In this document: positions 6,225 to 21,388 of the stretch, one piece after another
Layout of the letters: every line of letters starts with the position of its first letter
How positions within the stretch are numbered: the stretch's first letter is position 1
Source of the DNA: a virus
Taxonomy: Duplodnaviria; Caudoviricetes
Reading direction: 5' to 3' (one strand)
IMG/VR virus record: IMGVR_UViG_3300032038_000025
Location: 1-64,000 of that record
Length of the DNA stretch: 64,000 nucleotides
Program-made: the position numbers and the translations under genes
The notes under the pieces: model-generated
The model's database searches: none
What the model was told of the DNA's origin: nothing
The model's input: only the letters and a program-made list of their open reading frames with translations

Positions 6225-6226
6225 AA

Positions 6227-6457: not shown

Positions 6458-6547
6458 AAGTATGGGAGGAGAAAATCCTCCCATTGTTTTTTTTATAAAA
6501 TTATGATATAATATTATAAGAAAATTAATAAATAGAAAGGAAAAATT

Positions 6548-7249: not shown

Positions 7250-7258
7250 GGAGATATT

Positions 7259-7468: not shown

Positions 7469-7536
7469 ATTTCGCTTGCTTTTTTAAAAAATTTTTGATA
7501 TAATAATTATAGAAAAAAAGAAAGGAGTTTTTCATA

Positions 7537-8076
7537 ATGAGTAGAAGTCCATATTTTTTCGTTGAAAGATACGATAATAATATTAAAAGGTATGAAATTC
7601 AGCATCCATTAGTTTGGAATTGGAATCATACTAAGCGAGAACCCGCGGATCTTTTTCCTTATAATGGTTGTCATGATCTGTTTTCTATTGTAGAAAATAG
7701 TGGGAATTTTCCTAGTATGAATGGTATTCATGAAGGACTTCCGAAAGACGTTTCAATAGAAATTAAAGAAGCATATGATAGTTGTTCTTTTGAAACTGAA
7801 TACGAAGGAGAAAAGCATCTTTATACTCCGACTGCGCGCTGGTTTACTTATGCAGATATGTATATTTATTGTTTTGAACATCCAGAAGTAGTAGATTATG
7901 AAGCTATGGATGCCGCTTATTATGATGGAGTGGAAGAAAATCCGCCAAAGGAAATTATGAAACCAACTCCTGTTAAATCTCTTATGAATCGTGTTGATGC
8001 ATTTATGGAAGTTATAGATGATTGGAATTGGCGAAATGATTATAGTCAAATCCGCATTGTTTATTGGATTCTGTGA
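7537..8076 (+). CDS. hypothetical phage protein
   Basis: Promoter and RBS; RIVYW C-terminus. Confidence 0.75.
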   Translation: MSRSPYFFVERYDNNIKRYEIQHPLVWNWNHTKREPADLFPYNGCHDLFSIVENSGNFPSMNGIHEGLPKDVSIEIKEAYDSCSFETEYEGEKHLYTPTARWFTYADMYIYCFEHPEVVDYEAMDAAYYDGVEENPPKEIMKPTPVKSLMNRVDAFMEVIDDWNWRNDYSQIRIVYWIL

Positions 8077-8086
8077 GGAGGGTCAT

Positions 8087-8281
8087 ATGGCATATTCAGC
8101 TAATTTTTGTATTCATATGAAAACCTGGGCGGGTTCATTATATGAGCCCCCAGAATCTTGGTGTGAACTAAATTCAGAATATAGTTGCGATGATTGTCCT
8201 TATCAGTATTCAAAAGAAGATTATGAATGTGATTATGTTAATTTCAGAATGGAAATAGACCGAGACAGGTTTGATTTTTAA
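8087..8281 (+). CDS. small Cys-rich protein
   Basis: GAGGAGGG RBS before MAYSANF. Confidence 0.6.
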   Translation: MAYSANFCIHMKTWAGSLYEPPESWCELNSEYSCDDCPYQYSKEDYECDYVNFRMEIDRDRFDF

Positions 8282-8330
8282 AAAAATTTTTGATATAATA
8301 TATATAAAGATAAGGAAGTGAGGTAATAAT

Positions 8331-8543
8331 ATGGATATGAGTTATTGTTTTTTTATGGCGGAGGCCGAGGGTCTTCTTCCTACGCGAGCAGGACGAATTA
8401 ACGCCGCAATTAATGATATTAAAAGTTATCCTGTCCCGACTATTGAATTTTCAGAATTTAATAAAATTCTTGAAAAACATGATTTACATTATAATCAGTT
8501 AACCGATCGAGAGATACGCTATATCAATGCTAGTATTCGTTAA
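8331..8543 (+). CDS. hypothetical protein
   Basis: Promoter and GAGG RBS. Confidence 0.7.
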   Translation: MDMSYCFFMAEAEGLLPTRAGRINAAINDIKSYPVPTIEFSEFNKILEKHDLHYNQLTDREIRYINASIR

Positions 8544-8647
8544 AGATGGCGACAAAGAGACCGCCGCTTGAAAAACTTAAAAATTTTTGATATAATAAAT
8601 ACATAAGATAAAGAAAAACATTTTTACAAACAAAAGGAGATTTTAAG

Positions 8648-9028
8648 ATGGAAAATACAAAAAAGACAAAGGCTATGTATTTCGCTGAGCTTCGTGAGAT
8701 TGTTGAAGCTAATACTGAGGTTGAGAATCAGGCAGAGCTGCTTGAGTTTATTGACAAGCAGGTTGAAACTCTTGAGAAGAGAAAGGCCGCCGCAGCAGAG
8801 CGGGCTGAGAAGAAGAAGAACGAGTCCGATGCGCTGACTGAAGCAATTTTTGCTCAGATCGGAGAAGATTTTATTACTGTTGATGAGATTGTTGAGGCTC
8901 TTGGTGAAGAGGATATTACTCGAAATAAGGTCACCGCTCGTCTTGGCAAGCTGGTTAAGTCTGGGGCGGTTGTTAAGGAACTCGTTAAGACTGACAATGG
9001 CAAGAGAATGGCATATCATCTTGCTTAA
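8648..9028 (+). CDS. coiled-coil plus winged-HTH protein
   Basis: TVDEIVEAL...TRNKVTARLGKLVKSG. Confidence 0.75.
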   Translation: MENTKKTKAMYFAELREIVEANTEVENQAELLEFIDKQVETLEKRKAAAAERAEKKKNESDALTEAIFAQIGEDFITVDEIVEALGEEDITRNKVTARLGKLVKSGAVVKELVKTDNGKRMAYHLA

Positions 9029-9096
9029 ATAAAGATTTTTTAGCTTAAACCAAGGGAAGATTATTCTTCTCTTGGTTTAAGGTGGTGAGGAACAAG

Positions 9097-9894
9097 ATGT
9101 TTTGTTTAAATTATTATCCATTTTAGAAATATTTATAGGATGTTGAAGAATTAAAAATTGAATATCATCCTACAGATAAAACTATAGGTAAATTTTTAGA
9201 AACCTATAAAAATAAAAGTATTGTTATTAATGTATCTAAATCTTTTTAGGAAATTGATGCAAAAGTATTAAAAGAACTATACCAAAAATATAAAAATATA
9301 AAAATTGTTTTTGATTTTAAAAATAAAGAATTTTTAACAAGAGCAAAAAAATATGAAATTCCTTTTTTCTTTACTAATCATGTAACGACAATAGATGAAG
9401 TTCATGGATTATTACAATATCATCCAACGGATATGTATATTTGTGAAGAATTAGGTTTTTCTATTGATAAAGTTAGTAAAATATTACATGATAACAATGT
9501 TAAAGTTAGAGTGTATCCTAATATTTGTCAATCTAGTTTTTCATCCACTCCAAGTATAAAAACATTTTTTATTAGGCCAGAAGATATTATAATTTATTCT
9601 CTTTATGTAGATGTTTTTGAATTAATTTCGGATAAAGAAAGACAACAAATTATTTATAAGATTTATAAACAAGGTCAATGGCTTGGCAATTTAAGTGAAA
9701 TTATTCCTAGCTTTAAAGGTGAATTAGATGGGCGTTTTATTCTAAATCCTTTTGGATTAATTAGAACAAAATGTAAGAAAAGATGCATGTATGATCTTGG
9801 AAGCTGCACTGTGTGTGAAAAATTTTTAGATTTAGGTGACACTTTAAAAGAAAATAATATTTTTGTTAAAAGAAAAAAGAAATAGGAGACATAA
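9097..9894 (+). CDS. peptidase U32-like protein (TAG read-through)
   Basis: GAGG RBS at the ATG; reading TAG as sense extends the ORF 5' and ends it in a TAATG overlap with the next gene; VYPNICQ and FIRPED motifs. Confidence 0.65.
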
Positions 9895-10211
9895 TGGCGG
9901 CGAAGGGCAGTATTTTAAAAGGAGAAATTTCTAAAAAGATTTTGGAAGTTTTTCCAAATAGTTTTTTATATAATGATGGAAAAGAAATTCGTATTAATGG
10001 GACAGAAGATGGGGCCCCTCTTCAGATAAAGGTTGTTCTTACAGCAGCAAAAGTTGCGGTTGAAGGCGGCCAAGATATTGCGCTTCCTGGCGAAGAAAAG
10101 GCGGCAGCCGCAGATGACTGGCCGACTAAGACTAATGAAAAGATTCCTCAAGAGCCATCTGCTGAGGAAAAAGAAAGACTTGCAAAGCTATTAAATAAAC
10201 TTGGTTTGTAA
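9894..10211 (+). CDS. hypothetical protein
   Basis: GGAG RBS, 105 aa. Confidence 0.75.
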   Translation: MAAKGSILKGEISKKILEVFPNSFLYNDGKEIRINGTEDGAPLQIKVVLTAAKVAVEGGQDIALPGEEKAAAADDWPTKTNEKIPQEPSAEEKERLAKLLNKLGL

Positions 10212-10223
10212 AGGAAAATAGAT

Positions 10224-10523
10224 ATGGGCATGGGAGTTCATTTATATCAAATAACATGTTGGCAGGGATCAAGCGGATTATGGTATGTGAATGATATTAA
10301 AAATTTAAGCGGCCGCTCTGCAAAATGGTATACTCCTATGCGTATGCTTGATCTTTCTGTTGAAGAATATATTGATTTATTAAAGACTTTTCACGCAGAA
10401 GGCATTTCTTATTATATGCCTTCTGATTATCTATATTTTTATTTCACAAAGGAAAAAGATGCAAAAGCATTTTGTTCTTTTATTAATAAAAAAGCAAAAT
10501 GTATCAACTATTGTTGTGCATAA
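10224..10523 (+). CDS. hypothetical protein
   Basis: ORF in operon. Confidence 0.7.
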   Translation: MGMGVHLYQITCWQGSSGLWYVNDIKNLSGRSAKWYTPMRMLDLSVEEYIDLLKTFHAEGISYYMPSDYLYFYFTKEKDAKAFCSFINKKAKCINYCCA

Positions 10524-10716
10524 ATATACGGATGCTGGCGGAGAACTTCTTCAGCCGCGGTAGAAAGAAGGCTCGGTAGGCTTTATCAGATTTGAGGCGT
10601 CCAGTGTAAATCTGTTTTAATACCTGAAAAAGGGACAAGAGTAGGGGTCTGCCAAACCAGAGTCCCTGAAACAGCTACGGCGCAAGTTAAGAGAAATGCT
10701 GTTAGGGCAGACATTT

Positions 10717-10789
10717 ATGACCATAGTCTAATAGGTTAAGACGGGAGTCTTTCAAGCTCTTAATGTGAGTTCAAATCTCACTGGTTGTA
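10717..10789 (+). tRNA. tRNA-Glu(TTC)
   Basis: Cloverleaf; anticodon loop CT-TTC-AA. Confidence 0.8.
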
Positions 10790-10800
10790 TTATTTTTTAT

Positions 10801-10888
10801 GTCGATGTGGCGGAGTGGCTGATCGCGGCGCCCTGCTAAGGCGTTTATCACATTTTGTGGTACAAAGGTTCAAATCCTTTCATCGACG
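10801..10888 (+). tRNA. tRNA-Ser(GCT)
   Basis: Cloverleaf with long variable arm. Confidence 0.9.
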
Positions 10889-10891
10889 TTT

Positions 10892-11448
10892 GCCGCGATA
10901 TTCTAATTGGTAAGGAGTCGGTCTTGAAATTTAACATTATAGTTTTAAAATAATGTAATGAATGATACTCAATATAAGGGTGCTTTAACATAGCAAAAAT
11001 GTTTTTTAAAGTGTATTGAAATGGGTTTTACAGTTTCTAAACCAATTTTTGATAATGCTAGATATGATTTTATTTTAGATACGGGAAATAATTTATTAAA
11101 AATACAAGTAAAAACTTCTCGTTGGAAAGATGAAGAACATTCTGGTTTTATATTTAATTGTTATAGTCAGCACTCTTTATCAACTGGTAATAAAGTAATG
11201 AAATATACAAAAAAAGAAATTGATTTTTTTATGACCGAACAAGAAGGAATATTTTATTTATATCCTGCTCCAGAATAGGGTTTAAAAGAAAAAACTTTAA
11301 GAATTTTACCTGCAAAATCTGGACAAGTTAAAAATATTTCTTTTGCAAAGGATTATATATTTGAGGAGGTTATAAAAGACTATTAATTGCAATTTCAAAA
11401 CCGATGTTCGTGATGAGCGGATTGGGGGTTCGAGTCCCTCTCGCGGCG
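10892..11448 (+). tRNA. tRNA-Ser(TGA) split in the anticodon loop by an insertion of about 470 nt
   Basis: 5' half GCCGCGA..TCGGT-CTTGAA and 3' half ACCGA..TCGCGGC-G reassemble into a class II cloverleaf. Confidence 0.85.
10958..11386 (+). CDS. PD-(D/E)XK homing endonuclease, I-Ssp6803I-like (2 in-frame TAG)
   Basis: KGALT*Q...KP..D..RYDFILD...KIQVKTS; 142 aa with read-through; lies inside tRNA-Ser. Confidence 0.85.
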
Positions 11449-11452
11449 TTGC

Positions 11453-11524
11453 AGTGCGCTAGTTCAGTGGTGAGAACGGCGGTCTTATAAACCGCTAATA
11501 CGAGTCCGATTCTCGTGCGCACTA
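11453..11524 (+). tRNA. tRNA-Ile(TAT)
   Basis: Cloverleaf; GCGGT-CTTATAA-ACCGC. Confidence 0.8.
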
Positions 11525-11550
11525 TTCAAATTAATGATATGGAGGTTTTT

Positions 11551-12429
11551 ATGACAAATGTAATTGAAGATAAGGATATCAAAAAAATATTAGAATCAGA
11601 CGTTACAGCGGTTAATTCTATAAAAACATATTTACAAGAAATTAGCCAATATAGCCTCCTATCAAAAGAAGAGGAAATTAAATTGGCGAAAGCCGCCGCC
11701 TCAGGTGATCAAAAGGCAAAGAATGATTTAATTAATCATAATCTTCGTTTAGTTGTTCATATAGCTAAACAATATATAGGACATGGTTTATCTTTTTTAG
11801 ATTTGATTCAAGAAGGGAATTTGGGTTTAATTAAGGCCGCAGATAAATATGATGTAACTAGGGGTTTTAAATTTTCTACTTATGCTACCTATTGGATAAA
11901 ACAAACCATATCATATGCGGTTATGAATCAAAGTAGAAATATTAGAACACCTGTTAATATTATTAAATTAATTAGTAATATTAAAAAAGCGCGTCAAGAT
12001 TTTCAAAAAACTTATGGTAAAGAAGCTACAGATCAAGAAATTGCAAAAATTTTAAACATTAGTGTAGATAAGATTAAAGAAACTTCTTTTTGGACAAATG
12101 ATACAATCTCATTAGATACATTAATTAGTGATGATGAAGAAGTTCCCATAGGATTTTTTATAAAAGATAAGTCTGCGGAGGACGCTTTTCTTTCTATTGA
12201 TGAAGAATATCAAAAAGATATAATTAAAACAGTTCTTAATACATTAAATGATAGAGAAAAATTTATTATTATTCAGCGGTTTGGGATAAATCAAGATAGA
12301 GCTAGAACTCTTGAAGAAATTGGCGGCGATCTTGGATTGAGTAGAGAACGAGTTCGTCAGTTAGAGGAAACCGCACTTAAAAAACTTCGAAACCCGCGTC
12401 GAGCAAATATATTAAAAGAATTTTTTTAA
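11551..12429 (+). CDS. RpoD-like sigma70 factor (regions 1.2-4)
   Basis: [55 protein letters not shown]. Confidence 0.95.
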
Positions 12430-12655
12430 ACATTTGGGCAAAGTTTTATAAATAATTTGGTATATTTTTTATTAAGAATAGACCAAAGAAAACTCTTTGA
12501 TTTTTAATAAAATTTTTGATATAATATATATGTAAGGTAGGGGAAGAAGTTTTCAATGGTTTTTAAATTTCTTATAGGGGCGAGTCAAGCGCCGTTCCTA
12601 TAAGAAATAAAAATAATTTGAAATTTTTAAAAATTTTTGATATAATATATATATA

Positions 12656-12804
12656 AAGACAGAAAACAGCAAAAAAATGATACAAAATTAAGTAAATACA
12701 ATTTCTTACAGAAAGTGCTGAAGTTTTTAAGTGGTTTTGATTTTGTTTTTTGGTAAGCCGCCTATCTATAGGTTGTTAGTAAAAAAGAGAAACCTCCTGT
12801 CTTG
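12656..12804 (+). ncRNA. stem-ACAGCAA module 1
   Basis: AAGACAG-AAA-ACAGCAA ... CTGTCTTG terminal stem, right after a promoter. Confidence 0.55.
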
Positions 12805-12886
12805 TGCGAAAGGTCACGCGCCTGACCAAATGCAAATCCGGCGTGCGGTTGAAGTGGGAAGCCCGCTTAAAACAAGCCCACAATAT

Positions 12887-12960
12887 GGGGGCATAGCTCA
12901 GTTGGTGGTAGCGAGTGACTGTTAATCACTAGGTCGAAGGTTCAAGTCCTTCTGTCCCCG
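12887..12960 (+). tRNA. tRNA-Asn(GTT)
   Basis: Cloverleaf. Confidence 0.9.
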
Positions 12961-12966
12961 TTTAAT

Positions 12967-13047
12967 ACTCTGATGGCGTAATTGGCAGCCGCGCTGGTCT
13001 TAGGAACCAGTCCTTTATGGGTGAGGGTTCGAGTCCCTCTCGGAGTA
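12967..13047 (+). tRNA. tRNA-Leu(TAG anticodon)
   Basis: CTGGT-CTTAGGA-ACCAG; variable arm. Confidence 0.9.
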
Positions 13048-13224
13048 CGCAAGTGGGAGTTCTAAGCCACTTTTTAAAAAGAATGAACAGCGTTGTGTTT
13101 TTATAATAGTTTTTCACTCTCGGCCTTAATATGTTAGCAAAAAAAACTATAGAGAGGAAAGACCCTCGTTAGGTGTTCTTTAGTTGCAACCCTCTCGCTT
13201 CCCTAATGCGCATATGGGAAGATT

Positions 13225-13290
13225 TGGAACGAAGTTTTTCAGGCAAAAACACTCGCGGAGAGAATGTGGGTTCAATCCCCACCGTTCCAT
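13225..13290 (+). ncRNA. tRNA-like RNA with truncated anticodon arm
   Basis: Perfect acceptor TGGAACG/CGTTCCA, D and T arms; anticodon arm reduced to CTC-GCG-GAG. Confidence 0.6.
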
Positions 13291-13759
13291 TTTGTCAGAT
13301 AAGACATTAAAATCAGCGTTATCATGGATTAGAGTTAAACTACCACCGACTATGTAATTCGACCCTTTGGGAGTTGTATTAGGTATGTGGCTTTGTGGGA
13401 AACGCTTAATAAAGACGCAAAGTAAACTCATTTTTAATTATCAGTATCTATCGTGCCTCTTAACAATGCGTACCAGGATAGATCAGCTCTTTAATTTATT
13501 ATAATTATGTCAAAATATCGAAGCTAGTTTCTAAACAGCCCTCTTCGAGGCACATAATTATATAATCGGTAGTCAAGCATTAAAAGGCAATAAGAAAATA
13601 AAGCTGGATTACTTAGGGACACCAAGGAGAGACACCTTATAGAGCAGGGGAAAATCCATAAGATACTCTAAAATCATCGTTGCAACCCTAAACAGATGCG
13701 TGTGATTGAAACTGCACACCCGATTATTTACTTTTAAAAAAGAAAGAGAGGGACTTATT

Positions 13760-13939
13760 ATGAAAGATAATAAAACTGTAGTTTATATGGTAACTTATCA
13801 GGATGATAACAAGAAAACTCATCTTACTTTTGTAAAAGGTTTTTCTTCTGTTAGATTTATTAAAAATCGTTTTGAAAATGTACGGTTTGAAGTAACAGAT
13901 AAATATTGTCGAGAAGAAAGAGAAATGTTTGATTTTTAA
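13760..13939 (+). CDS. small hypothetical protein
   Basis: GAGGG RBS before MKDNKTVVY. Confidence 0.6.
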   Translation: MKDNKTVVYMVTYQDDNKKTHLTFVKGFSSVRFIKNRFENVRFEVTDKYCREEREMFDF

Positions 13940-14289
13940 TAAAATTTTTGATATAATATATATATAAGATATATAGCAATGGTGATTGGATTTAATAGTG
14001 TACATAAACATCCAAAGAGTCCACCACACTGCGGCGGTCGGTAGCGAGAGACCATAGCAGACTACCTCGAAGGGGTCATGACCTTCTAATTCAGGCTATA
14101 AATGGACGGAATAGGGAGCCTAGAAAATGGACAAAGCTATATATCAGTACTGATGTTGAATCTCATGGCTAAGCACTGAAGGAATTCCGAGGGATTGGAG
14201 GATGCGGAGGAGTAGGAAAAAGTAGGGTCCTTTGAAGTGCAATCAACAAGGTGGGACAGGTAGAGTGAGAACATTTACCCACATTTTTT

Positions 14290-14361
14290 AGTCTTATAGT
14301 ATAATGGTTAGTACACTAGATTGTCTCTCTAGAGGTCGGGGTTCGATTCCCCGTAGGATTG
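14290..14361 (+). tRNA. tRNA-Asp(GTC)
   Basis: Cloverleaf. Confidence 0.85.
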
Positions 14362-14366
14362 TTTAA

Positions 14367-14438
14367 CGCTCAGTGGTCAAGTGGTTAAGACGCCAGTCTC
14401 TAAAACTGGAAACTCGAGTTCGATCCTCGGATGAGCGA
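14367..14438 (+). tRNA. amber suppressor tRNA (CTA anticodon) with a tRNA-Glu-type body
   Basis: CCAGT-CT-CTA-AA-ACTGG (anticodon 14400-14402); D arm TGGTCAAGTGGTTAAGAC; 4-nt variable loop; C1:G72. Confidence 0.9.
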
Positions 14439-14612
14439 TAGGTCCAGACTAGCTCTAGACGTAAAACTAAATAAGACTTTATTGTAGGCTAGTAGAGATA
14501 AAGTCAAAATTGAGAGTCTCTCACCGCGTCTGTCCCAGCTCGGTATATAAATGCATTGGGATGGGGAGGAAACCCTACTGAAGAAAACCATTTTGAGGTT
14601 TGCGCAGACCTC

Positions 14613-14690
14613 ACTGTATATGTGTTTGCTGGTGCAAACATTACCCTCAGTAAGGGTGAAGATGATAGGTTCGATTCCTGTATATACAGT
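14613..14690 (+). tRNA. atypical tRNA-like RNA, nominal anticodon AGT (Thr)
   Basis: 8-9 bp acceptor, 7 bp D stem with 4-nt loop, 6 bp anticodon stem, normal T arm. Confidence 0.55.
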
Positions 14691-14695
14691 TTTAT

Positions 14696-14769
14696 CGCGG
14701 GGTGGAGCAGTCTGGAAGCTCGTCAGAGTCATGTTCTGAAGGTCGGAGGTTCGAATCCTTCTCCCGCAA
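14696..14769 (+). tRNA. tRNA-Met(CAT), initiator-like body
   Basis: C1xA72 mismatch and CGCGGGGTGGAGCAG 5' end. Confidence 0.85.
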
Positions 14770-14771
14770 TT

Positions 14772-14874
14772 TAGTCACACACAGCAAAATTGTCAAGGTA
14801 GCGAAAAGGTTAACGCATTAGAATTTTAATCTAAGAATTGTTGGTTCAAATCCAACCCATGGTAATGTGACTAG
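14772..14874 (+). ncRNA. stem-ACAGCAA module 2, enclosing a tRNA-Lys(TTT)-like cloverleaf
   Basis: TAGTCACA/TGTGACTA outer stem; inner D arm, TTAGA-ATTTTAA-TCTAA anticodon arm and T arm. Confidence 0.65.
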
Positions 14875-14879
14875 AAAAT

Positions 14880-14951
14880 GCCGTCATAGCGCAATGGTAG
14901 CGCAAGTGTTTTGTAAACACTGGGTTGGGAGTTCGAATCTCTCTGGCGGCT
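14880..14951 (+). tRNA. tRNA-Thr(TGT)
   Basis: Cloverleaf. Confidence 0.9.
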
Positions 14952-14954
14952 TCA

Positions 14955-15026
14955 GCAGGAGTAGTACAGAGGTTAGTGCGCTAGTCTTCCAAACTAGTTA
15001 CGCGGGTTCAATTCCCGTCTCTTGCT
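14955..15026 (+). tRNA. tRNA-Gly(TCC)
   Basis: Cloverleaf. Confidence 0.9.
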
Positions 15027-15032
15027 TTATAT

Positions 15033-15105
15033 GGGGTCATAGCTCAGCTGGGAGAGCACATCCCTTGCAAGGATGAGGTCGAGAGTTCGATTCTCTCTGA
15101 CTCCA
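15033..15105 (+). tRNA. tRNA-Ala(TGC)
   Basis: Cloverleaf; G3:U70. Confidence 0.9.
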
Positions 15106-15139
15106 CTATTGCGATATCTGGATTTATTTAATTTTAACT

Positions 15140-15212
15140 ACTCGATTAACTCAGCTGGGAGAGTGCGACTCTTACAAAGTCGAAGTCGTTGGTTCAAGTC
15201 CAACATCGAGTA
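15140..15212 (+). tRNA. tRNA-Val(TAC)
   Basis: Cloverleaf. Confidence 0.9.
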
Positions 15213-15218
15213 CTGTTT

Positions 15219-15633
15219 GCGGGCGTGGCGTAAGGGCAGCCGCACGGGACTTTTTCCTAACAAACTATAAAGGAGAGCCTTATAGTGGAAACATTATAAG
15301 TGTAGGTGGCTAATTCGGCGAAAGGTTAGGCAACGCCGAGCTAAATTAAAATAATAGTGCCAATGAAGGTTGGTTTGGGAGTTAACCCAAATAAGATGCA
15401 AGACAGGGCGGAGGTCGCGCCTCCATAAAACCTTAGATATAGGCGAGGGACTGACTAAGGGGAAACTATTATTTTATAAATGTGTAGAGACTATATACCA
15501 TCTACCTAAGTCAGAAATGATATGGTAAAGACATAGTCCAGACTACAACGCTAATGGGCGGCTATGGTGACATAGAGTAGTAAGAAAATCCCGGGGACGA
15601 GAGTCCGTGTGAGTTCGAATCTCACCGCCCGCA
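15219..15633 (+). tRNA. tRNA-Leu(TAA) containing a group I intron
   Basis: Exons CGGGA-CTT | AAAA-TCCCG rejoin to give the UAA anticodon. Confidence 0.85.
15253..15584 (+). mobile_element. group I intron without an ORF, after U34 of tRNA-Leu
   Basis: 5' exon ends in U, intron ends in G; core-like GTAGAGACTA and GACATAGTCC segments. Confidence 0.8.
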
Positions 15634-15639
15634 TTTTTT

Positions 15640-15713
15640 GGCTCCATCGTCTAAATGGTAAGGACGCAGCCCTTTCAAGGCTGAAATGTTGGGTTCAAGT
15701 CCCATTGGAGCTG
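15640..15713 (+). tRNA. tRNA-Glu(TTC), second copy
   Basis: CAGCC-CTTTCAA-GGCTG. Confidence 0.9.
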
Positions 15714-15717
15714 CTAT

Positions 15718-15801
15718 GGGTGAGTAGACGACTAAGGAGATTGGCGGGGCTGTAAACCCCGTGGCTTTGGCACCGAGTGGGTTCGATTCCCTCTTCACCC
15801 A
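15718..15801 (+). tRNA. tRNA-Tyr(GTA)
   Basis: Cloverleaf with variable arm. Confidence 0.85.
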
Positions 15802-16032
15802 TTCTCGTAGCCGTATATTTATGGGTAGCTCCCAACGAGAGATATAAATAAATACGGTAAATCTTAATTTATATAACTGATCGACCCAGGCGTAAGGGTA
15901 CAGAATATGACAATATCTATATTGTAAATTCCGCGGTTTAAGTGATGAACGTATGCATTGGTTATAACGCAGCCATTAATAAAAAGAATTGTTCTCAAAG
16001 ATTTAAGAATGAGAATGAAAGGAGATTTTATT

Positions 16033-16329
16033 ATGAAAATTTTATATCAAAGTGACATTACAGGTAAAACTTATGAATCTGAGGCGGCCCTTGTAAAAGC
16101 AGAAGCTGAAATTTCAAAAGCAAAGCAGGAAGAAGAGCTAAAGAAGAAAGAACGCGCAGAAGCGGCAAAGGTAGTTCAAGCTAAACTGGACGCCGCCAAG
16201 AAAGCTCAGAAAGAAGCTCAGGAGAGTCTTGTTGACTTTTGTAAAAAGTATGGAACATTTAAGACCTCTCTTGACAGAAAAAGCGTTTTTGATCCATTCA
16301 GTTTTTTCTTTGATCCATTTGAGTTTTAA
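16033..16329 (+). CDS. hypothetical coiled-coil protein
   Basis: GGAG RBS before MKILYQS. Confidence 0.75.
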   Translation: MKILYQSDITGKTYESEAALVKAEAEISKAKQEEELKKKERAEAAKVVQAKLDAAKKAQKEAQESLVDFCKKYGTFKTSLDRKSVFDPFSFFFDPFEF

Positions 16330-16402
16330 CCCATAAATCACGAAATACTTATCTGATTATTTACAGTTTTCATGGCGTTTTGCGAATGCAAGACGCTTTT
16401 AA

Positions 16403-16473
16403 CGAGAATGTGGTGTAATGGTAGCACGCCAGTTTTGGGAACTGGAGGCGAGGTTCGAATCCTACATTTTCGA
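16403..16473 (+). tRNA. tRNA-Pro(TGG)
   Basis: CCAGT-TTTGGGA-ACTGG. Confidence 0.8.
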
Positions 16474-16582
16474 TTACTTTTTTATTAATTATTACAAAAG
16501 TTTTACATTTTGGTCAAATTTATGTAATATTTCCTTAATATTTTTTATATTTAATATAAGAAATAGTTAAGGAGGAAAAATA

Positions 16583-17458
16583 TTGATTAAAAAATTTATT
16601 GTAGTATTATTATCATGTTTTATTTTATGCGGTTTTGCAAGTCCAATAGAAGCAAGCGAATTAAATTAGAAGAAATCTCTTCCAATTTAGCCCACACTGA
16701 GAACAAATTTTAATCAAAATGCTAATTTAAAGATTAATGATTATAATTTTATTGACACTTTGGAAAAACGTAGTAAAAATAAAAAAAGTGATAATATAAC
16801 CTTTTTACATGCGGTTCCCGTCTTACATGCGGAAATAGTCGAGGTCCCCGCATAGCCAGTAGAAGAATAGGTTTATATAGAATAGGAGCCTATTGTTTAT
16901 GAAGAATAGGTTGCTTATTAGGAAGAACCAGTTTACTATGAATAGGAGCCTACAGTCTATTATTAGGAACCAATTTATTATGAAGAAACTGTAATTCCAG
17001 AAGAAGAAGAATATATAGTATATGAATAGCCACAATACGTTGAAGAAGAAATAACTTATAATTATGAAACAACAGAACAAGTATCTTATGATAATTCTTC
17101 TACCGTTGGTCAATAGATTGTAAATAATGCATTACAATATGTTGGTAATCCTTATGTATATGGCGGAAATAGTTTGACAAATGGAATTGACTGTTCTGGT
17201 TTTACTCAACAAATATTAGCGGCGTCTGGTATTACAATAGACAGAACAGCAGAAAGTCAATCTTATGGTGGAGAATATGTTGATTTAAATAATTTACAAG
17301 CTGGAGATTTATTATTTTATGATAATGGTGATTTTATTGGGCATGTTGCAATCTATTGCGGAGATGGAACAGTTGTACATGCCAGTGATGAAATTACGGG
17401 TATAACTGTTTCTGATGTTAACTACAGAACTCCAGCATTAGCTAAAAGGTACTGGTAA
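16583..17458 (+). CDS. secreted NlpC/P60 (C40) peptidase with E/Y/P-rich linker (11 in-frame TAG)
   Basis: GGAGG RBS and TTG start; signal peptide; GNPYVYGG..GIDCSGF, GHVAIY and HAS motifs. Confidence 0.85.
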
Positions 17459-17472
17459 CAGTACCTAATTAA

Positions 17473-17556
17473 GCGCGTGTCACCTAGCGGCTAGGGTAAC
17501 GGACTTTTAATCCGTCAAGATTCGTCTCATCGTGGGTTCAAATCCCGCCACGCGCA
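17473..17556 (+). tRNA. tRNA-Lys(TTT) with long variable arm
   Basis: ACGGA-CTTTTAA-TCCGT followed by a 16-nt variable region. Confidence 0.8.
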
Positions 17557-17936
17557 TTTTCTGCGGGAAGAACAATATCAAATAATATTGTAGGTATGGT
17601 GAAATGATATATCCGCCTCAAAACAGAAACTGTCTCAGCAGTAATATTATAATACATTAAAACAGTTGAATTGTAAATAATTTTGATTTTGTCGGTTTAT
17701 AATCCAAGACTGAGATATTGGAGTGATCAGCTGCACTTAATAAATAAACGATAAAATTCGTAGATGAAATTATAAACTATATTATTTGAAAAACAAGGGA
17801 ATAGGATGAGGAGCGGCGATGCAGACCACTTAATAATGTCTAGGCATCAAGTAGTTTTAGAATAATATAGTTTATAAGGAAGTCTAAAAAATATTTGATT
17901 TTTAATAAAAATTTTGATATAATATATATATAAAGT

Positions 17937-18054
17937 TAAGACATTTACAGCAAACATTAAAAAAATATTATATTGTCGTGAGTTCAAGTCTCATCTTTTT
18001 CCGAGCGAAAGAGTAGATCAGCTGGTAGATCAAATAATAAATTAAATGTCTTGA
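17937..18054 (+). ncRNA. stem-ACAGCAA module 3 with circularly permuted tRNA domain (YrlA/Y-RNA-like)
   Basis: Order is T arm (17978-17994), loop-closed acceptor (17995-18013), D arm (18016-18031), inside the AAGACATTT/AAATGTCTT stem. Confidence 0.75.
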
Positions 18055-18058
18055 TTAA

Positions 18059-18130
18059 AGCCCCTTCGCCAAGTGGTAAGGCACAGCACTTTGACTGCTG
18101 TATGCGGTGGTTCGAATCCACCAGGGGCTG
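18059..18130 (+). tRNA. tRNA-Gln(TTG)
   Basis: GCCAAGTGGTAAGGC D arm; CT-TTG-AC loop. Confidence 0.9.
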
Positions 18131-18133
18131 TAG

Positions 18134-18205
18134 ACTCCGATAGCATAATGGAGAGAACATGTGACTACGGATCATAAGATGGGGGTTCGACTCCCTCTCG
18201 GAGTA
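18134..18205 (+). tRNA. tRNA-Arg(ACG)
   Basis: Cloverleaf, weak D stem. Confidence 0.75.
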
Positions 18206-18212
18206 TTTATAT

Positions 18213-18343
18213 GGGAGATTAGGCTAATAGGTAAACCGCGTTATGTTAAAACATCGGTTTTGTAAAAACCCGAATCAGCAAATTTAAATGATAAACAGTT
18301 GCTTGGGGCGCACGTATTAGAGGTTCGAGTCCTCTATCTCCTA
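18213..18343 (+). tRNA. tRNA-Pro(GGG) with a 59-nt insertion in the anticodon stem
   Basis: Removing about 18242-18300 restores CGTGC-TTGGGGC-GCACG. Confidence 0.65.
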
Positions 18344-18346
18344 TTA

Positions 18347-18499
18347 AAAATCAACTTATAGTGAGTGAAAGCCTAACGACAGGGGAGGAAAAGGAATCGC
18401 AAGGGTAACATTTTTCTCGTCGGACATTACCCAATCCGAAAAATCGGGTCTTACGCTAGATTGACCGACGCCGCGGAAAGTAGCTATAAGTTGATTTTA
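18347..18499 (+). ncRNA. structured RNA candidate closed by a 15-bp stem
   Basis: AAAATCAACTTATAG ... CTATAAGTTGATTTT with a GC-richer interior. Confidence 0.45.
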
Positions 18500-18527
18500 T
18501 AAAAAATTTTTGTTATAATATAAATAT

Positions 18528-18593
18528 AAGATATAAACAGCAAAAAATATTAATCGCCACATTTCAAGTTTGATTAGCTTACAATATATCTTG
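18528..18593 (+). ncRNA. stem-ACAGCAA module 5
   Basis: AAGATATA-A-ACAGCAA ... TATATCTTG, after a promoter. Confidence 0.55.
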
Positions 18594-18605
18594 TTTAAAA
18601 ATCTT

Positions 18606-18693
18606 TAGATACTAACAGCAATTTAATTTAACATTATTTAATTTTTAAATCTTGATGTAAAGAATAAAAACTTAAATTTTTAAAGGTATCTAG
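18606..18693 (+). ncRNA. stem-ACAGCAA module 6
   Basis: TAGATACT-A-ACAGCAA ... GGTATCTAG. Confidence 0.55.
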
Positions 18694-18920
18694 TTTAAAA
18701 TTTTAAAAGATTTCAAGTATGGTTTTTCGCAATCACACTTATTTTCACTCCCTTTCTTTTGATTTTGGACTAGTCAATTTTGGCTAGTCCGTTTTTTTAT
18801 GAGTCAATAGCCAAATGGTAAGGATGTTAAGAGCAAAATTAAAAAACTTTGGTCCGATTTTAATAATTCTTTTCTTATAATTTTTATTAATAGTAGAAAG
18901 ATAAGAAAGGAGAATTTCAA

Positions 18921-19664
18921 ATGATTGGAATTTATAAAATTACAAATAAAATTAATGGATTAAGTTATATTGGACAAAGTGTTCATATTGAAAGACGTTT
19001 TATTGAACATTGTCTGCCATCAAAAACGTCAAAAATCTCTTGTGCAATTCAAGAATATGGAAAAGATAATTTTGATTTTTCTGTATTAGAAGAATGTTCT
19101 CAAAAGTAGTTAAATGATAGAGAACAATATTGGATTCAATATTTTAATACTATTGTACCTTATGGCTATAATGTAGCAGAAACTAATAGTGCTACTAATC
19201 ATACTGTTTATTACTATTATAATAAAGAACAGTTACAATCTATTTTAAAAGATTTATAGAATAATCAATATACATTAAAAGATATTGCGAAAAAATATAA
19301 TTTAAATATTAGTACCATTTCAAGAATTAATAAAGGTTTAATTCATTGGCAGCCTAATATTCAATATCCAATTAAAGATACTAATCGAAAGAATTTACCT
19401 AAAAAATATTGTATAGATTGTGGAATTGAAATTTCTTATACAGCAACTCGTTGTAATAAATGTGCTGCTAAACAAAGAACTATTGAAAAACCTATTAATC
19501 GAGAAGAATTAAAAAAATTAATTAGAAATACCCCTTTTACAACAATAGGAAAGCAATTTAATGTAACAGATAACGCAATACGAAAATGGTGTAAAAGTTA
19601 TAATCTTCCAACCACAAAAAAAGAAATTAAACAATATACTGAAAAAGAGTGGGAACAAATTTAA
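18921..19664 (+). CDS. free-standing GIY-YIG homing endonuclease (2 in-frame TAG)
   Basis: GIYKITNKING.SYIGQS..IERR; LNDREQYWI; Zn ribbon and HTH; 247 aa with read-through. Confidence 0.85.
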
Positions 19665-19673
19665 ATGCCACTT

Positions 19674-19758
19674 GAGGAAGTGACCGAGCTGGTTAAGGAG
19701 TTGGTCTGCAAAACCAATACAGTAGAAATACTCATGGGTTCAAATCCCATCTTCCTCT
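19674..19758 (+). tRNA. tRNA-Cys(GCA) with long variable arm
   Basis: TTGGT-CTGCAAA-ACCAA; AGTA-GAAA-TACT variable hairpin; U73. Confidence 0.8.
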
Positions 19759-19858
19759 TTGTTGATTTTAAATAAAAATTTTGATATAATATATATATAA
19801 GGTTATGAAAGATAACCTCAAACAAAAGTTTGAAAGAGATAAAAGGAGAAAAAATACT

Positions 19859-21388
19859 ATGAATACTTTTCTTAATCAGATGACCAAGGATAACAATATC
19901 ACTCGTACAGAAAATGGCGGCATTACCCGCAAGAGTACAGAATCTAAGGTACTTGATATGTTCGGAATGGGCGGTGCATATAGAAGTCGTTCTGATGCAG
20001 ATGTTATTCTTCTTTTTAAGAATGCATTTGAGGAAGATCGCCTTCTAGCTATGAAGTGTCTATTCTATCTGAGAGACATTCGCGGCGGCCAGGGTGAGAG
20101 GCGCTTCTTTAGAACCGCTTTTCGTTGGCTTTGTAACGAATATCCGCAGGTTGCTAAGGCAAATCTTGAGAATGTCAGTGAATATGGTCGTTGGGATGAT
20201 CTGATCTACGTTGCTGAAGGCACTCAGGTGCAGACCGCCGCATTTAATATTATCAAGCGTCAGCTGGCTCTTGATATCCAGTGTAAAACTCCGTCTCTTC
20301 TTGCAAAATGGATGCCTTCTCAGAATGCTTCTAATGCAGATACTAAAAGACTTGGGCATATTCTGGCAAATTTCTTAGGAATGACTAGCCGCGAGTATCG
20401 CAAGACTCTTTCTACTCTGCGTGAGCGTATTAATGTTCTTGAGAGACTGATGAGCGCAAACCGCTGGGATGAGATTGAGTTTGATAAGATTCCTTCTAAG
20501 GCAGGACTTATTTATCGTAATGCTTTTGCAAGACGAGATATTCTTGCTAAGAAGTATGAAACCTTTGCTAAGAGCAAGAGTACTGAAGTAAATGCAGATG
20601 CGCTGTATCCGCATGATATTGCCCACAGAGCATTTAAAATGTCTGTTAGTCTTGAAGATCCAACTCGTCTTATGCTTCAAAAGTATTGGGATAATCTCAA
20701 AGACTTTTATTGCGGTAGAGAGGAAAATGGTATTGCGGTTATTGATGTGTCTGGCTCTATGAGCGGAGTTCCGATGGAGGCCGCAGTTTCTATGGGAGCT
20801 TATATTGCAGATAAGGCACATGGTCCATTTGCAAATCATTTTATTACTTTTTCTGCTCACCCGCAGCTGGTGAAGTTTGAGGGAGTAGATATTGTTGATA
20901 AATTTAAGCGTTGTGTTCGTGCGGATTGGGGTATGAATACAAATGTGCAGGCAGTGTTTAATATGCTTTTAAATACTGCTAGGAGACAGGGCGTAAAGGC
21001 TGAAGATATGCCGACCAGAATTTATATCTTCTCTGATATGGAGTTTGATGAGTGTGTGTCTTTTGATCGCACCTCTTCTAATCGTTCTTATGATGATTAT
21101 TGGAACGGAAGATGGGATTCTTATCATACTATTAACTCTATTGACGAGGCAAACTCTGACCTTGAGAAGATCAAGTCAGAATGGGCGCATTATGGATATC
21201 AGATGCCTCAGATTATCTTTTGGAATCTTAATGCCAGAAATAATCGGATTCCTGCGATCGGCGATGGATTCAGCTATGTAAGCGGATTCTCCCCTTCCAT
21301 GATTGATTGCATCCTGAGCGGCAAGGATGGTTGGGATCTGATGGTTGAAAAGCTCATGTCTGAGCGCTATAAGGCGGTTACCGCATAA
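19859..21388 (+). CDS. DUF2828-family protein (TROVE/Ro60-like N-terminus plus vWA domain)
   Basis: TENG, RDIRGGQGERR, YGRWDD, AKWMP, MIDAS DVSGSM, FSDMEFD and FWNL motifs. Confidence 0.85.
   Translation: MNTFLNQMTKDNNITRTENGGITRKSTESKVLDMFGMGGAYRSRSDADVILLFKNAFEEDRLLAMKCLFYLRDIRGGQGERRFFRTAFRWLCNEYPQVAKANLENVSEYGRWDDLIYVAEGTQVQTAAFNIIKRQLALDIQCKTPSLLAKWMPSQNASNADTKRLGHILANFLGMTSREYRKTLSTLRERINVLERLMSANRWDEIEFDKIPSKAGLIYRNAFARRDILAKKYETFAKSKSTEVNADALYPHDIAHRAFKMSVSLEDPTRLMLQKYWDNLKDFYCGREENGIAVIDVSGSMSGVPMEAAVSMGAYIADKAHGPFANHFITFSAHPQLVKFEGVDIVDKFKRCVRADWGMNTNVQAVFNMLLNTARRQGVKAEDMPTRIYIFSDMEFDECVSFDRTSSNRSYDDYWNGRWDSYHTINSIDEANSDLEKIKSEWAHYGYQMPQIIFWNLNARNNRIPAIGDGFSYVSGFSPSMIDCILSGKDGWDLMVEKLMSERYKAVTA

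What the first reader, a model, noticed from the sequence alone, without database searches (positions are those of the whole stretch)
17937..18054. Circularly permuted tRNA domain with YrlA architecture
Seen: GTGAG-TTCAAGT-CTCAT (T arm) comes first, then CTTTTTC-CGAGC-GAAAGAG (acceptor closed by a loop), then GATC-AGCTGGTA-GATC (D arm). The anticodon position is replaced by the linker to the ACAGCAA stem. Established: this T-acceptor-D order matches bacterial YrlA Y RNAs. It is the strongest link between the ACAGCAA modules and a Ro-like protein. It could be a decoy for tRNA-targeting defence nucleases (inference).
Basis: partly seen in the sequence, partly recalled or inferred. Interest (0 to 1): 0.82.

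Follow-up and report, generated by a model that had tools for sequence, protein, structure and literature searches.

The report
Permuted tRNA-like Y RNA of phage
This phage gene makes a small RNA with the parts of a tRNA in rearranged order (as in bacterial YrlA "Y RNAs") plus a conserved docking handle; it most likely partners with a neighbouring Ro60-shaped ring protein in a widespread, uncatalogued relative of the Ro60/Y-RNA particle linked to tRNA repair.

Summary
At 17936-18054 (+) a 12-bp stem closes, in order, ACAGCAA, a T arm, a 7-bp loop-closed acceptor stem, U8-A9 and a D arm. There is no anticodon arm.

It is a conserved RNA. I found about 90 distinct relatives in large phages and some bacterial or archaeal contigs. 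About 94% of base-pair cells are kept, and 21 of 24 pairs show compensatory changes. The tRNA Levitt pair covaries: 26 G15:C48, 50 A15:U48, no G:U.

Rfam's YrlA model is the only family that recognises it, but at 30.5 bits against a cut-off of 69, and YrlA's GNCGAA motif is replaced by ACAGCAA. It is therefore YrlA-like but not an RF02553 member.

The gene 1.8 kb downstream (DUF2828+DUF7788) has no TROVE HMM match. It nevertheless folds as Ro60 over its whole length (Z 20 to 1yvr) and uses the identical promoter.

Handle RNAs sit upstream of this gene family, on the same strand, in phages. In Ruminococcus they lie between rtcB and the gene.

Most likely this is a Y-RNA-type adaptor of a Ro60-like ring acting in tRNA damage, repair or quality control. 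Binding, expression and the decoy idea are untested.

This scan has already noted the system in many other genomes.

The parts
17895..17923 (+). Sigma-70-type promoter: -35 TTGATT, 17-nt spacer with TG, -10 TATAAT. The predicted start lies a few bases before the closing stem.
   Evidence: It belongs to a 25-nt repeat found 10 times on the + strand (0.01 expected). The copy at 17909-17933 is identical to the copy at 19776-19800 in front of the Ro60-like gene. A consensus match only; no transcript data.
17936..17947 (+). 5' strand of the closing stem (conserved AAGAC, then a variable part).
   Evidence: Pairs with 18043-18054. In relatives the AAGAC/GUCUU part is nearly invariant, and the inner pairs covary.
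17947..17953 (+). ACAGCAA 'handle', unpaired except for its first A; candidate protein-docking motif.
   Evidence: C13, A14, G15 and C16 are invariant and A17 nearly so in 15 MAFFT-aligned relatives. The motif reads ACAGCAA in most of the 92 distinct relatives. It occupies the place of YrlA's GNCGAA motif.
17954..17977 (+). Variable region between handle and T arm. The hairpin is degenerate in this copy. It ends in C17977, the equivalent of tRNA position 48.
   Evidence: Most relatives have a 5-9-bp hairpin here, often with a tetraloop and in some an anticodon-type 7-nt loop. This copy does not fold, 0.0 kcal/mol.
17978..17994 (+). T arm (5-bp stem, loop TTCAAGT).
   Evidence: Stem pairs are kept in 99.8% of cells, and 4 of 5 pairs show compensatory change.
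17995..18013 (+). Acceptor-like stem of 7 bp closed by the loop CGAGC.
   Evidence: All 7 pairs show compensatory change in relatives. In 29 of 92 relatives the loop starts with N-CCA.
18014..18031 (+). U8-A9 and the D arm (GATC / AGCTGGTA / GATC), with A14, G15, G18 and G19.
   Evidence: G15 (18021) and C48 (17977) can form the Levitt pair. Across relatives: 26 G:C, 50 A:U, 0 G:U of 84.
18032..18042 (+). A/U-rich linker that takes the place of the anticodon arm.
   Evidence: Length and sequence vary in relatives.
18043..18054 (+). 3' strand of the closing stem (ends in conserved GUCUUG).
18059..18130 (+). tRNA-Gln(UUG), starting 4 nt after the stem. RNase P cleavage at its 5' end would set the 3' end of the Y-like RNA (inference).
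19805..21388 (+). Ro60-like protein gene (DUF2828 + DUF7788). The likely true start is the ATG at 19859, behind AAAGGAG.
   Evidence: Pfam. AlphaFold2 model with mean pLDDT 93. Foldseek: the 12 matches listed at E <= 0.001 (of 13 counted) are all Ro60/Rsr/TROVE. VIA-align Z 20.0, 414 residues, rmsd 3.9 A to 1yvr. The DxSxS MIDAS residues are invariant. Start.
12654..12806 (+). Sibling handle RNA with a different cargo.
   Evidence: Same closing stem plus ACAGCAA, directly behind a promoter repeat.
14769..14877 (+). Sibling handle RNA enclosing a tRNA-Lys(UUU)-like body.
18525..18696 (+). Two further sibling handle RNAs (18525-18596 and 18603-18696).
   Evidence: R1 hit at 18526-18594.

Best explanation
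The element is a gene for a small non-coding RNA of about 120 nt of the Y-RNA type.

Biogenesis (inferred). It is transcribed from the sigma-70-like promoter at 17895-17923, together with the tRNAs that follow. Its 3' end is probably released when RNase P cuts the 5' end of tRNA-Gln, 4 nt downstream.

Fold (shown by covariation). A closing stem with conserved AAGAC/GUCUUG ends is followed by single-stranded ACAGCAA. Then comes a circularly permuted tRNA body: T arm, loop-closed 7-bp acceptor stem and D arm. These can form the tRNA elbow and the Levitt pair.

Partner (inferred from gene linkage and predicted fold). The stem plus ACAGCAA docks on the phage's Ro60-like ring protein, the DUF2828/DUF7788 gene at 19859-21388, which has the same promoter. 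In this way a YrlA's stem and GNCGAA motif bind Rsr.

Function (inferred). The RNA acts as an adaptor that presents a tRNA-shaped module on the ring. The most likely setting is tRNA damage, repair or quality control during infection. The module could recruit tRNA-recognising enzymes (RNase P, modification, end-healing or sealing enzymes, or an exonuclease), or it could gate the ring. As with M. smegmatis YrlA, the 7-bp acceptor stem makes cleavage of the closing loop by RNase P plausible.
For: RNA structure
- A MAFFT-only alignment of 15 relatives gives 19 of 24 pairs with compensatory change.
- Model-fitted alignments give 95.1% of cells paired and 20 of 24 pairs, and 94.3%, 21 of 24 pairs and 535 compensatory cells against 144 in shuffles. 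Slid controls stay near 40%.
- Tertiary signature: N15:N48 is G:C 26, A:U 50, G:U 0 of 84. U8 80/84, A14 82/84, G18G19 81/84.

YrlA likeness
- RF02553 is the only Rfam family apart from tRNA that hits this RNA (30.5 bits) and its relatives (26-42 bits).
- It has the same T-acceptor-D order.

Partner protein
- Ro60 fold over the whole length.
- MIDAS DxSxS residues invariant.

Linkage
- All 175 model hits in 80 loci anchored on the gene are on the gene's strand.
- Strict handle modules: 59 upstream on that strand, 4 in or after the gene.
- 42 of 49 phage records picked by the RNA pattern encode the protein, and 18 of 20 complete ones. The two exceptions are chance pattern matches. In tRNA-bearing control records the figure is 6 of 46.
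- In bacterial genomes, 27 strict modules lie in the 500 nt before the gene, against about 1 per bin elsewhere.
- Permuted modules also lie just before the gene in Synergistaceae, Gammaproteobacteria and Asgard MAG contigs.

Repair context
- In five Ruminococcus loci a conserved 414-aa ORF lies upstream of the handle-RNA array and the DUF2828 gene. Where scanned (L387, R. flavefaciens FD-1) it is RtcB, with WYL/WCX-type regulators divergent. This mirrors the Salmonella rsr-yrlBA-rtcBA operon (PMC4201824, PMC7790460).
- This phage also has an RNA ligase, a P-loop kinase and a metallophosphoesterase side by side at 74.2-76.9 kb.

Shared promoter
- The same 25-nt promoter sequence precedes the RNA and the protein gene.
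Against: - No transcript, binding or modification data exist. Protein-RNA contact rests only on linkage and fold.
- The protein has no TROVE HMM match and only about 13% identity to Ro60. RNA binding on the Ro60 pattern is therefore assumed.
- RF02553 is far below its cut-off, and its Rsr-binding part is not aligned.
- The phage records are related to each other, so the co-occurrence counts are not independent events.
- This copy's variable hairpin is degenerate.
- The phage's repair genes lie more than 55 kb away.
- What the tRNA-like domain does is unknown even for true YrlA.
Confidence: 0.7

Rival explanations
1. Decoy or sponge. The tRNA-shaped module soaks up a host tRNA-targeting defence protein (a nuclease or an acceptor-end modifier). 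The ring protein only stabilises or caps the RNA, or plays no part.
For: - The element sits in a phage tRNA array.
- Sibling and related handle RNAs carry anticodon-type loops such as CUUUUAA (Lys UUU) and CUGUAAA (Tyr GUA), the kinds of loop that anticodon nucleases cut.
- 29 of 92 relatives encode N-CCA at the acceptor end.
- The phage carries RNA end-healing and sealing genes.
Against: - This copy has no anticodon loop and no CCA.
- The same RNA-protein pairing occurs in bacterial chromosome contigs next to rtcB with WYL regulators. An anti-phage-defence decoy makes little sense there.
- The strict linkage to the Ro60-like gene argues that the protein is integral.
Confidence: 0.2
2. Processing punctuation. 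The tRNA-like fold exists only so that RNase P or RNase Z cut the polycistronic transcript at this point.
For: The element is flanked by tRNAs and other small RNAs in one transcription unit. tRNA-like folds are RNase P substrates (PMC4201824).
Against: - Real tRNAs already flank it and would provide the cuts.
- It does not explain the conserved closing stem plus ACAGCAA, which is shared with RNAs that have no tRNA part.
- It does not explain the linkage to the Ro60-like gene.
Confidence: 0.05
3. Inert relic of the junction between two tandem tRNA genes (3' half of one, 5' half of the next), or a permuted tRNA gene that matures into a decoding tRNA as in the red alga Cyanidioschyzon.
For: - The order T arm, acceptor 3' strand, spacer, acceptor 5' strand, D arm is what a tandem-duplicate junction gives.
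- Some relatives keep N-CCA plus a spacer and a full anticodon arm. The origin is therefore probably such a junction.
Against: - About 90 distinct copies keep every helix by compensatory change, and also keep the 15:48 tertiary pair. A relic would decay.
- This copy has no anticodon arm, no 7-nt anticodon loop and no CCA, so it cannot decode.
- tRNA finders do not call it.
Confidence: 0.03

Closest known systems
YrlA Y RNAs of bacteria and mycobacteriophages (Rfam RF02553; Chen et al. 2014, PMC4201824)
   Same: - A closing 5'/3' stem, with a short conserved purine-rich motif just after the 5' strand.
- An optional variable hairpin, then T arm, loop-closed acceptor stem and D arm in that permuted order.
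- tRNA tertiary nucleotides, including a covarying 15:48 pair.
- Encoded just upstream of a Ro60-fold gene and, in bacteria, beside rtcB.
- The 7-bp acceptor stem matches that of M. smegmatis YrlA, which RNase P cleaves.
   Different: - It scores 30.5 bits against the 69-bit cut-off; relatives score 26-42.
- The motif is ACAGCAA, not GNCGAA(N)G.
- The conserved stem is AAGAC/GUCUUG.
- The partner is a DUF2828/DUF7788 protein without a TROVE HMM match.
- It belongs to a battery of RNAs that share the handle but carry different cargoes.
Ro60/Rsr ring proteins, including Thermus phage phiLo Ro60 with Yrl1/Yrl2 (PDB 1YVR, 2NVO, 9KOP, 9L5Y; PMC12135203)
   Same: - The neighbouring protein has the HEAT-repeat ring plus vWA fold over its whole length (Z 20.0 to 1yvr, 14.8 to 9kop), with an intact MIDAS motif.
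- As in phiLo, the RNA genes lie upstream of the phage's Ro60-type gene.
   Different: - About 13% identity, and it belongs to a separate Pfam family pair.
- phiLo's Yrl RNAs were picked by a CGAA motif and are not described as tRNA-like.
- No binding data exist for the DUF2828 family.
Circularly permuted tRNA genes of Cyanidioschyzon merolae (from my own knowledge, not checked here)
   Same: The 3' half of the tRNA body is encoded before the 5' half.
   Different: Those genes give a complete decoding tRNA after circularisation and processing. This RNA has no anticodon arm and is closed by an extra stem with a handle.

Membership tests
YrlA (Rfam RF02553) | Covariance-model score at or above the gathering score (69 bits) | tested here: not met
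   30.5 bits, E 2.2e-4. Not listed at gathering threshold. Relatives score 26-42 bits.
YrlA (Rfam RF02553) | tRNA-like domain in the order T arm, loop-closed acceptor stem, D arm, inside a closing stem | tested here: met
   Supported by compensatory change in all helices.
YrlA (Rfam RF02553) | tRNA tertiary nucleotides with a covarying Levitt pair (G15:C48 or A15:U48) | tested here: met
   26 G:C, 50 A:U and 0 G:U of 84. U8, A14 and G18G19 are present in over 95%. The feature is as described in PMC4201824.
YrlA (Rfam RF02553) | GNCGAA(N0-1)G motif near the 5' end (proposed Rsr contact) | tested here: not met
   There is no CGAA in 17936-17977. ACAGCAA stands in that place.
YrlA (Rfam RF02553) | Encoded next to a Ro60 orthologue (TROVE domain) | tested here: inconclusive
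   No TROVE (PF05731) match anywhere in the 118-kb record. The gene 1.8 kb downstream has the Ro60 fold by prediction.
YrlA (Rfam RF02553) | Bound by Rsr/Ro60; carries pseudouridine 55 and dihydrouridine | not testable with these tools
   Needs immunoprecipitation or EMSA, and modification mapping.
tRNA (RF00005) | Cloverleaf with an anticodon arm in the normal order | tested here: not met
   No tRNA call at 17936-18054 by Infernal or ARAGORN. No anticodon arm in the sequence.
Ro60/TROVE proteins (for the partner gene 19805-21388) | TROVE HMM match | tested here: not met
   PF05731 finds nothing in the record, while the control genomes give matches. Pfam instead gives DUF2828 + DUF7788.
Ro60/TROVE proteins (for the partner gene 19805-21388) | HEAT-repeat ring plus vWA domain with a MIDAS motif | tested here: met
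   Model with mean pLDDT 93 and pTM 0.91. The 12 Foldseek matches listed at E <= 0.001 (of 13 counted) are all Ro60/Rsr/TROVE. Z 20.0 over 414 residues, while non-Ro rows reach at most 9.5 and cover only the vWA part. D314, S316 and S318 are invariant in 97 sequences.
Handle RNAs linked to DUF2828 genes (a class seen in this scan; I found no paper or Rfam family for it) | Closing stem with conserved AAGAC/GUCUUG followed by unpaired (A)CAGCAA, upstream of a DUF2828 gene on the same strand | tested here: met
   Gene linkage. No Rfam family found for bacterial examples.

The most novel reading that the evidence does not exclude
DUF2828/DUF7788 proteins and their ACAGCAA-handle RNAs form a second, widespread branch of the Ro60/Y-RNA particle in gut and rumen bacteria and their large phages. 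In this branch the permuted-tRNA member is opened by RNase P, so that it displays a true tRNA acceptor end. A third of relatives already encode N-CCA there. The ring then uses this nicked tRNA mimic as bait or as a guide, either to capture or to help repair tRNAs attacked at the acceptor end or the anticodon during phage-host conflict.
Probability: 0.3. Interest if true: 0.85.

Novelty: new variant of a known kind. Interest (0 to 1): 0.72.

Why it matters
Ro60 and its Y RNAs are conserved from bacteria to humans, but what the tRNA-like domain of bacterial YrlA does is still unknown.

- Here the same permuted tRNA design recurs with a protein family that sequence models do not recognise as Ro60. 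It has a different docking motif, occurs in hundreds of phage and bacterial records, and in bacteria again sits beside rtcB.
- This suggests that the pairing of a ring protein with a tRNA-shaped adaptor RNA is an old and general device for handling damaged tRNA.
- It gives DUF2828/DUF7788 a testable function.
- It supplies many natural sequence variants for binding and structure work: closed versus CCA-bearing acceptor loops, and different cargoes on one handle.
- For phage biology, it adds a likely third layer to tRNA arrays and RNA-repair enzymes in the contest over host tRNA cleavage.

Tried and rejected
- **TROVE, RtcB and CCA-adding enzyme in the phage record:** none found. The partner is therefore not a canonical Rsr, and the phage brings no RtcB.
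- **Second PF09414 hit at 83 kb:** it is the NAD-dependent DNA ligase, not an RNA ligase.
- **Single-sequence structure prediction of the protein:** useless, pLDDT 42. Repeated with a 97-sequence alignment.
- **ACAGCAA count alone:** not enriched in the window (13 found, 8.2 expected). Only the motif in its stem context is meaningful. My relaxed stem-plus-motif finder was mostly noise (367 on + and 182 on -, against 297 in shuffles). The strict one was clean (58 on +, 5 on -, 6 in shuffles).
- **Two complete phage records with the RNA pattern but without the protein:** the one I read was a chance match inside a coding region (L091). Its sibling L125, like L091, gave no model hit.
- **Alternative pairing of the variable hairpin's 3' strand with the segment after the D arm (an anticodon-like stem):** seen by eye in several relatives. 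I read it as a trace of origin from tandem tRNA genes and did not count it formally.
- **attP or integration-site remnant:** considered and dropped, because the D-arm half and the compensatory changes point to an RNA.
- **Literature:** no paper links DUF2828 to Ro60 or Y RNA. Burroughs & Aravind 2016 (PMC5062991) and Sim et al. 2020 (PMC10870794) are not held. An earlier mention of this protein family as Ro-like cannot be excluded.

Full report
**Setting.** The window is the first 64 kb of a 117,928-bp IMG/VR phage record. It has about 30% G+C. TAG is read as a sense codon: long frames open only when TAG is translated, and a tRNA with anticodon CUA lies at 14367. Positions 10.7-19.8 kb hold 21 tRNA genes on the + strand.

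**The observation.**
- T arm: 17978-17994.
- Acceptor-like hairpin: 17995-18013, a 7-bp stem closed by CGAGC.
- T-A at the position of U8-A9.
- D arm: 18016-18031.
- Closing stem: 17936-17947 pairs with 18043-18054. ACAGCAA (17947-17953) follows its 5' strand directly.
- No anticodon arm. An A/U-rich stretch (17954-17977) and a linker (18032-18042) join the tRNA-like body to the closing stem.

RNAfold recovers all four helices, but the energy is only moderately unusual (z -2.09). Neither ARAGORN nor the Rfam tRNA model calls a tRNA here.

**Relatives and covariation.** A single-sequence nhmmer search of 80 phage loci, fetched through the neighbouring protein gene, found full-length relatives.
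- A MAFFT alignment of 15 relatives gave an RNAalifold consensus with the same four helices. Of 24 pairs, 19 show compensatory change.
- A covariance model built from that alignment (R1) found 19 copies in those loci.
- It found 94 more in loci fetched with a DNA pattern for handle plus T loop. Together that is 92 distinct sequences.
- On the large alignment, 94.3% of cells are standard pairs, against 67% in shuffles and about 40% when partners are slid. 21 of 24 pairs change on both sides, with 535 compensatory cells against 144.
- Per helix, with compensatory change: T stem 4 of 5 pairs, acceptor 7 of 7, D stem 3 of 3, closing stem 7 of 9.
- These alignments are fitted to the model, which favours the structure. 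The MAFFT-only result agrees.

**It folds like a tRNA, not merely like three hairpins.** The base before the T stem (position 48) and the second base of the D loop (position 15) covary as the Levitt pair: 26 G:C, 50 A:U, 6 A:C and no G:U among 84 parsed sequences. About 15 G:U would be expected if the two positions were independent. U8 (80/84), A14 (82/84) and G18G19 (81/84) are kept. These were not part of any search pattern. The T-loop letters and G53:C61 were partly imposed by my pattern and regex, so I give them no weight. In the window copy, G15 is 18021 and C48 is 17977.

**Variation within the family.**
- Most members have a hairpin between the handle and the T arm. It often carries a tetraloop, and in some members an anticodon-type 7-nt loop. 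In the window copy this hairpin has decayed to an unstructured A/U stretch.
- In 29 of 92 members, the loop closing the acceptor stem begins with N-CCA (mostly G-CCA or A-CCA) followed by an A/U-rich spacer. That is exactly where a tRNA's discriminator and CCA lie, and about 1.4 such cases would be expected by chance.
- Together with members that keep a whole anticodon arm, this points to an origin from the junction of two tandem tRNA genes.
- It also suggests that in many members the loop is cut to expose a tRNA-like end. M. smegmatis YrlA behaves this way: it has a 7-bp acceptor stem, is cleaved by RNase P and receives CCA (PMC4201824).
- The window copy has the 7-bp stem but a short loop without CCA. 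Whether it is cut is open.

**Comparison with YrlA.** Rfam's YrlA model is the only non-tRNA family that recognises the element (30.5 bits, E 2.2e-4 in the 1-kb search). It also recognises relatives, at 26-42 bits. All scores are far below the 69-bit cut-off. The alignment covers the tRNA-like part and the 3' strand, but not the Rsr-binding 5' part. YrlA's GNCGAA(N)G motif is absent, and ACAGCAA stands in its place. The architecture is therefore YrlA's, while membership of RF02553 is not met.

**The partner protein.** The record has no TROVE match. The gene at 19805-21388 is DUF2828 + DUF7788. Its likely start is the ATG at 19859, behind AAAGGAG. The family is large: 6,619 representative clusters at 50% identity.
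- With a 97-sequence alignment, AlphaFold2 gives mean pLDDT 93 and pTM 0.91.
- In Foldseek, the 12 matches listed at E <= 0.001 (of 13 counted) are all Ro60, Rsr or TROVE structures aligned over the full length, with E down to 2e-7. The next matches are at E about 0.1 and cover only the vWA domain.
- VIA-align gives Z 20.0 (414 residues, rmsd 3.9 A) to Xenopus Ro60, and Z 11-15 to Deinococcus Rsr and Thermus phage phiLo Ro60. Unrelated rows reach at most 9.5.
- The MIDAS residues DxSxS are invariant.
- The protein is thus a remote, Ro60-shaped relative. That it binds RNA is inferred.

**Linkage of RNA and protein.**
- In the 80 gene-anchored phage loci, all 175 model hits lie on the gene's strand.
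- Strict stem-plus-handle modules number 59 upstream on that strand, 4 in or after the gene, and 10 on the other strand.
- Of 49 phage records chosen only by the RNA pattern, 42 encode the protein, and 18 of 20 complete ones. The two complete exceptions are chance pattern matches: one was read and lies in a coding region, and neither is hit by R1. The other five negatives are fragments of at most 44 kb.
- Of 46 control phage records chosen only for an ordinary tRNA, 6 encode the protein. The best handle-bearing model hit in that control set lies in one of those six.
- These records are related to each other, so the counts are not independent events. The synteny nevertheless persists down to 36-50% protein identity.

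**Bacteria.**
- Homologues at 36-40% identity occur in Ruminococcus, other Clostridia, Synergistaceae and others.
- 27 strict modules lie within 500 nt upstream of the gene, against about 1 per 500-nt bin elsewhere.
- In Ruminococcus the 450-700-nt space before the gene holds four to seven tandem handle RNAs, with handles ACAGCAA, ACAGCAG or ACAGCAT.
- The gene before that space is a conserved 414-aa ORF in five loci. Where I scanned it (L387, R. flavefaciens FD-1) it is RtcB. ORFs with weak WYL, WCX or PaaX-like matches (mostly below Pfam's cut-offs) lie nearby, divergently transcribed in L387.
- This mirrors the Salmonella rsr-yrlBA-rtcBA RNA-repair operon (PMC4201824; PMC7790460).
- Permuted T-acceptor-D modules with the handle also lie directly before the gene in Synergistaceae, Gammaproteobacteria and Asgard-archaeon MAG contigs. 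Some of these contigs may be viral.
- Rfam has no family for the bacterial RNAs.

**Phage context.**
- The element lies behind a sigma-70-type promoter (TTGATT, 17 nt with TG, TATAAT; 17895-17923). This is part of a 25-nt repeat present ten times on the + strand.
- The copy before the RNA is identical to the copy before the Ro60-like gene, so co-regulation is likely.
- tRNA-Gln starts 4 nt after the closing stem, which offers a ready 3'-end cut by RNase P.
- Four sibling handle RNAs with other cargoes lie at 12654, 14769, 18525 and 18603.
- Outside the window, the phage encodes an RNA ligase, a P-loop kinase and a metallophosphoesterase in a row (74.2-76.9 kb). That is the usual end-healing and sealing set.

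**Reading.**
- I hold with high confidence that this is a real, structured, tRNA-shaped small RNA of YrlA design.
- I hold with fair confidence that it is the RNA partner of the Ro60-like protein.
- Its role is inferred. The recurrence beside rtcB in bacteria favours an adaptor or gate in tRNA damage, repair or quality control over a pure anti-defence decoy. The decoy reading remains possible for the phage copies.
- A relic or a decoding permuted tRNA is excluded for practical purposes by the covariation and by the missing anticodon arm.

**Novelty and caveats.**
- YrlA RNAs with Ro60 are known in bacteria and phages (PMC4201824; PMC12135203). A different handle, a partner family not recognised as TROVE and a multi-cargo battery make this a new variant of that kind.
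- I found no paper linking DUF2828 to Ro60 or Y RNAs. Two key reviews could not be read.
- This scan has already noted the handle-RNA/DUF2828 system many times: 257 notes in at least 181 genomes, including neighbours of this element in the same record. What this report adds is the analysis of the permuted class: the 15:48 covariation, the CCA-bearing acceptor loops, the origin from tandem tRNAs, and the 2x2 control.

Noticed in passing
window 17765-17882 (+): Another candidate structured RNA just upstream of the promoter. A closing stem of about 18 bp encloses a G+C-richer core. Energy -24.8 kcal/mol, z -3.71, and 0 of 200 shuffles fold as well. It has no Rfam match and no ACAGCAA handle.
   Followed up: partly
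window 18346-18494 (+): A 149-nt element closed by a 12-bp stem, with a G+C-rich interior. It lies between the tRNA-shaped RNA at 18213-18343 and the next promoter. The fold z is only -1.65, and there is no Rfam match.
   Followed up: partly
G000 74237-76940 (outside the window; L396 738-3441): RNA ligase (PF09414 plus PHA02142 OB domain), an AAA_33 P-loop kinase and a calcineurin-like phosphoesterase lie in a row. This is an RNA end-healing and sealing set.
   Followed up: partly
L387 3228-6467; also L359, L364, L381, L358: In Ruminococcus and Anaerotruncus genomes, four to seven tandem handle RNAs precede the DUF2828 gene. The handles vary: ACAGCAA, ACAGCAG, ACAGCAT. In the Ruminococcus loci a conserved 414-aa ORF lies upstream; it is RtcB where scanned (L387). 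ORFs with weak WYL/WCX/PaaX-like matches are divergently transcribed (scanned in L387 and L358).
   Followed up: partly
L149 3144-3739, L092 905-1499, L081 1-552: ROOL RNA (RF03087, 254-305 bits) lies in the tRNA and handle-RNA regions of three related phages. None is present in this window.
   Followed up: no
window 19805-19861: The table-11 ORF of the Ro60-like gene starts at 19805, only about 8 nt after the predicted transcript start. Homologues begin at residue 19, and an AAAGGAG site precedes the ATG at 19859, so 19859 is the likelier start.
   Followed up: yes
G019, G021, G028, G032; L031, L037, L038: In several phages the DUF2828 gene matches in two separated pieces, or spans 200-700 extra bases. 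This suggests an insertion (intron or homing-endonuclease gene) or a split gene.
   Followed up: no
window 4011-19800 (+): Ten copies of a 25-nt promoter repeat (TG-extended -10 TATAAT with an A/T-rich upstream part), all on the + strand. They probably depend on a sigma-70-type factor. The phage encodes its own at 11515-12429.
   Followed up: partly
L157 4296-4403: A partial tmRNA match (RF00023, 46.6 bits, cut by the locus end) at the edge of a related phage's tRNA array.
   Followed up: no
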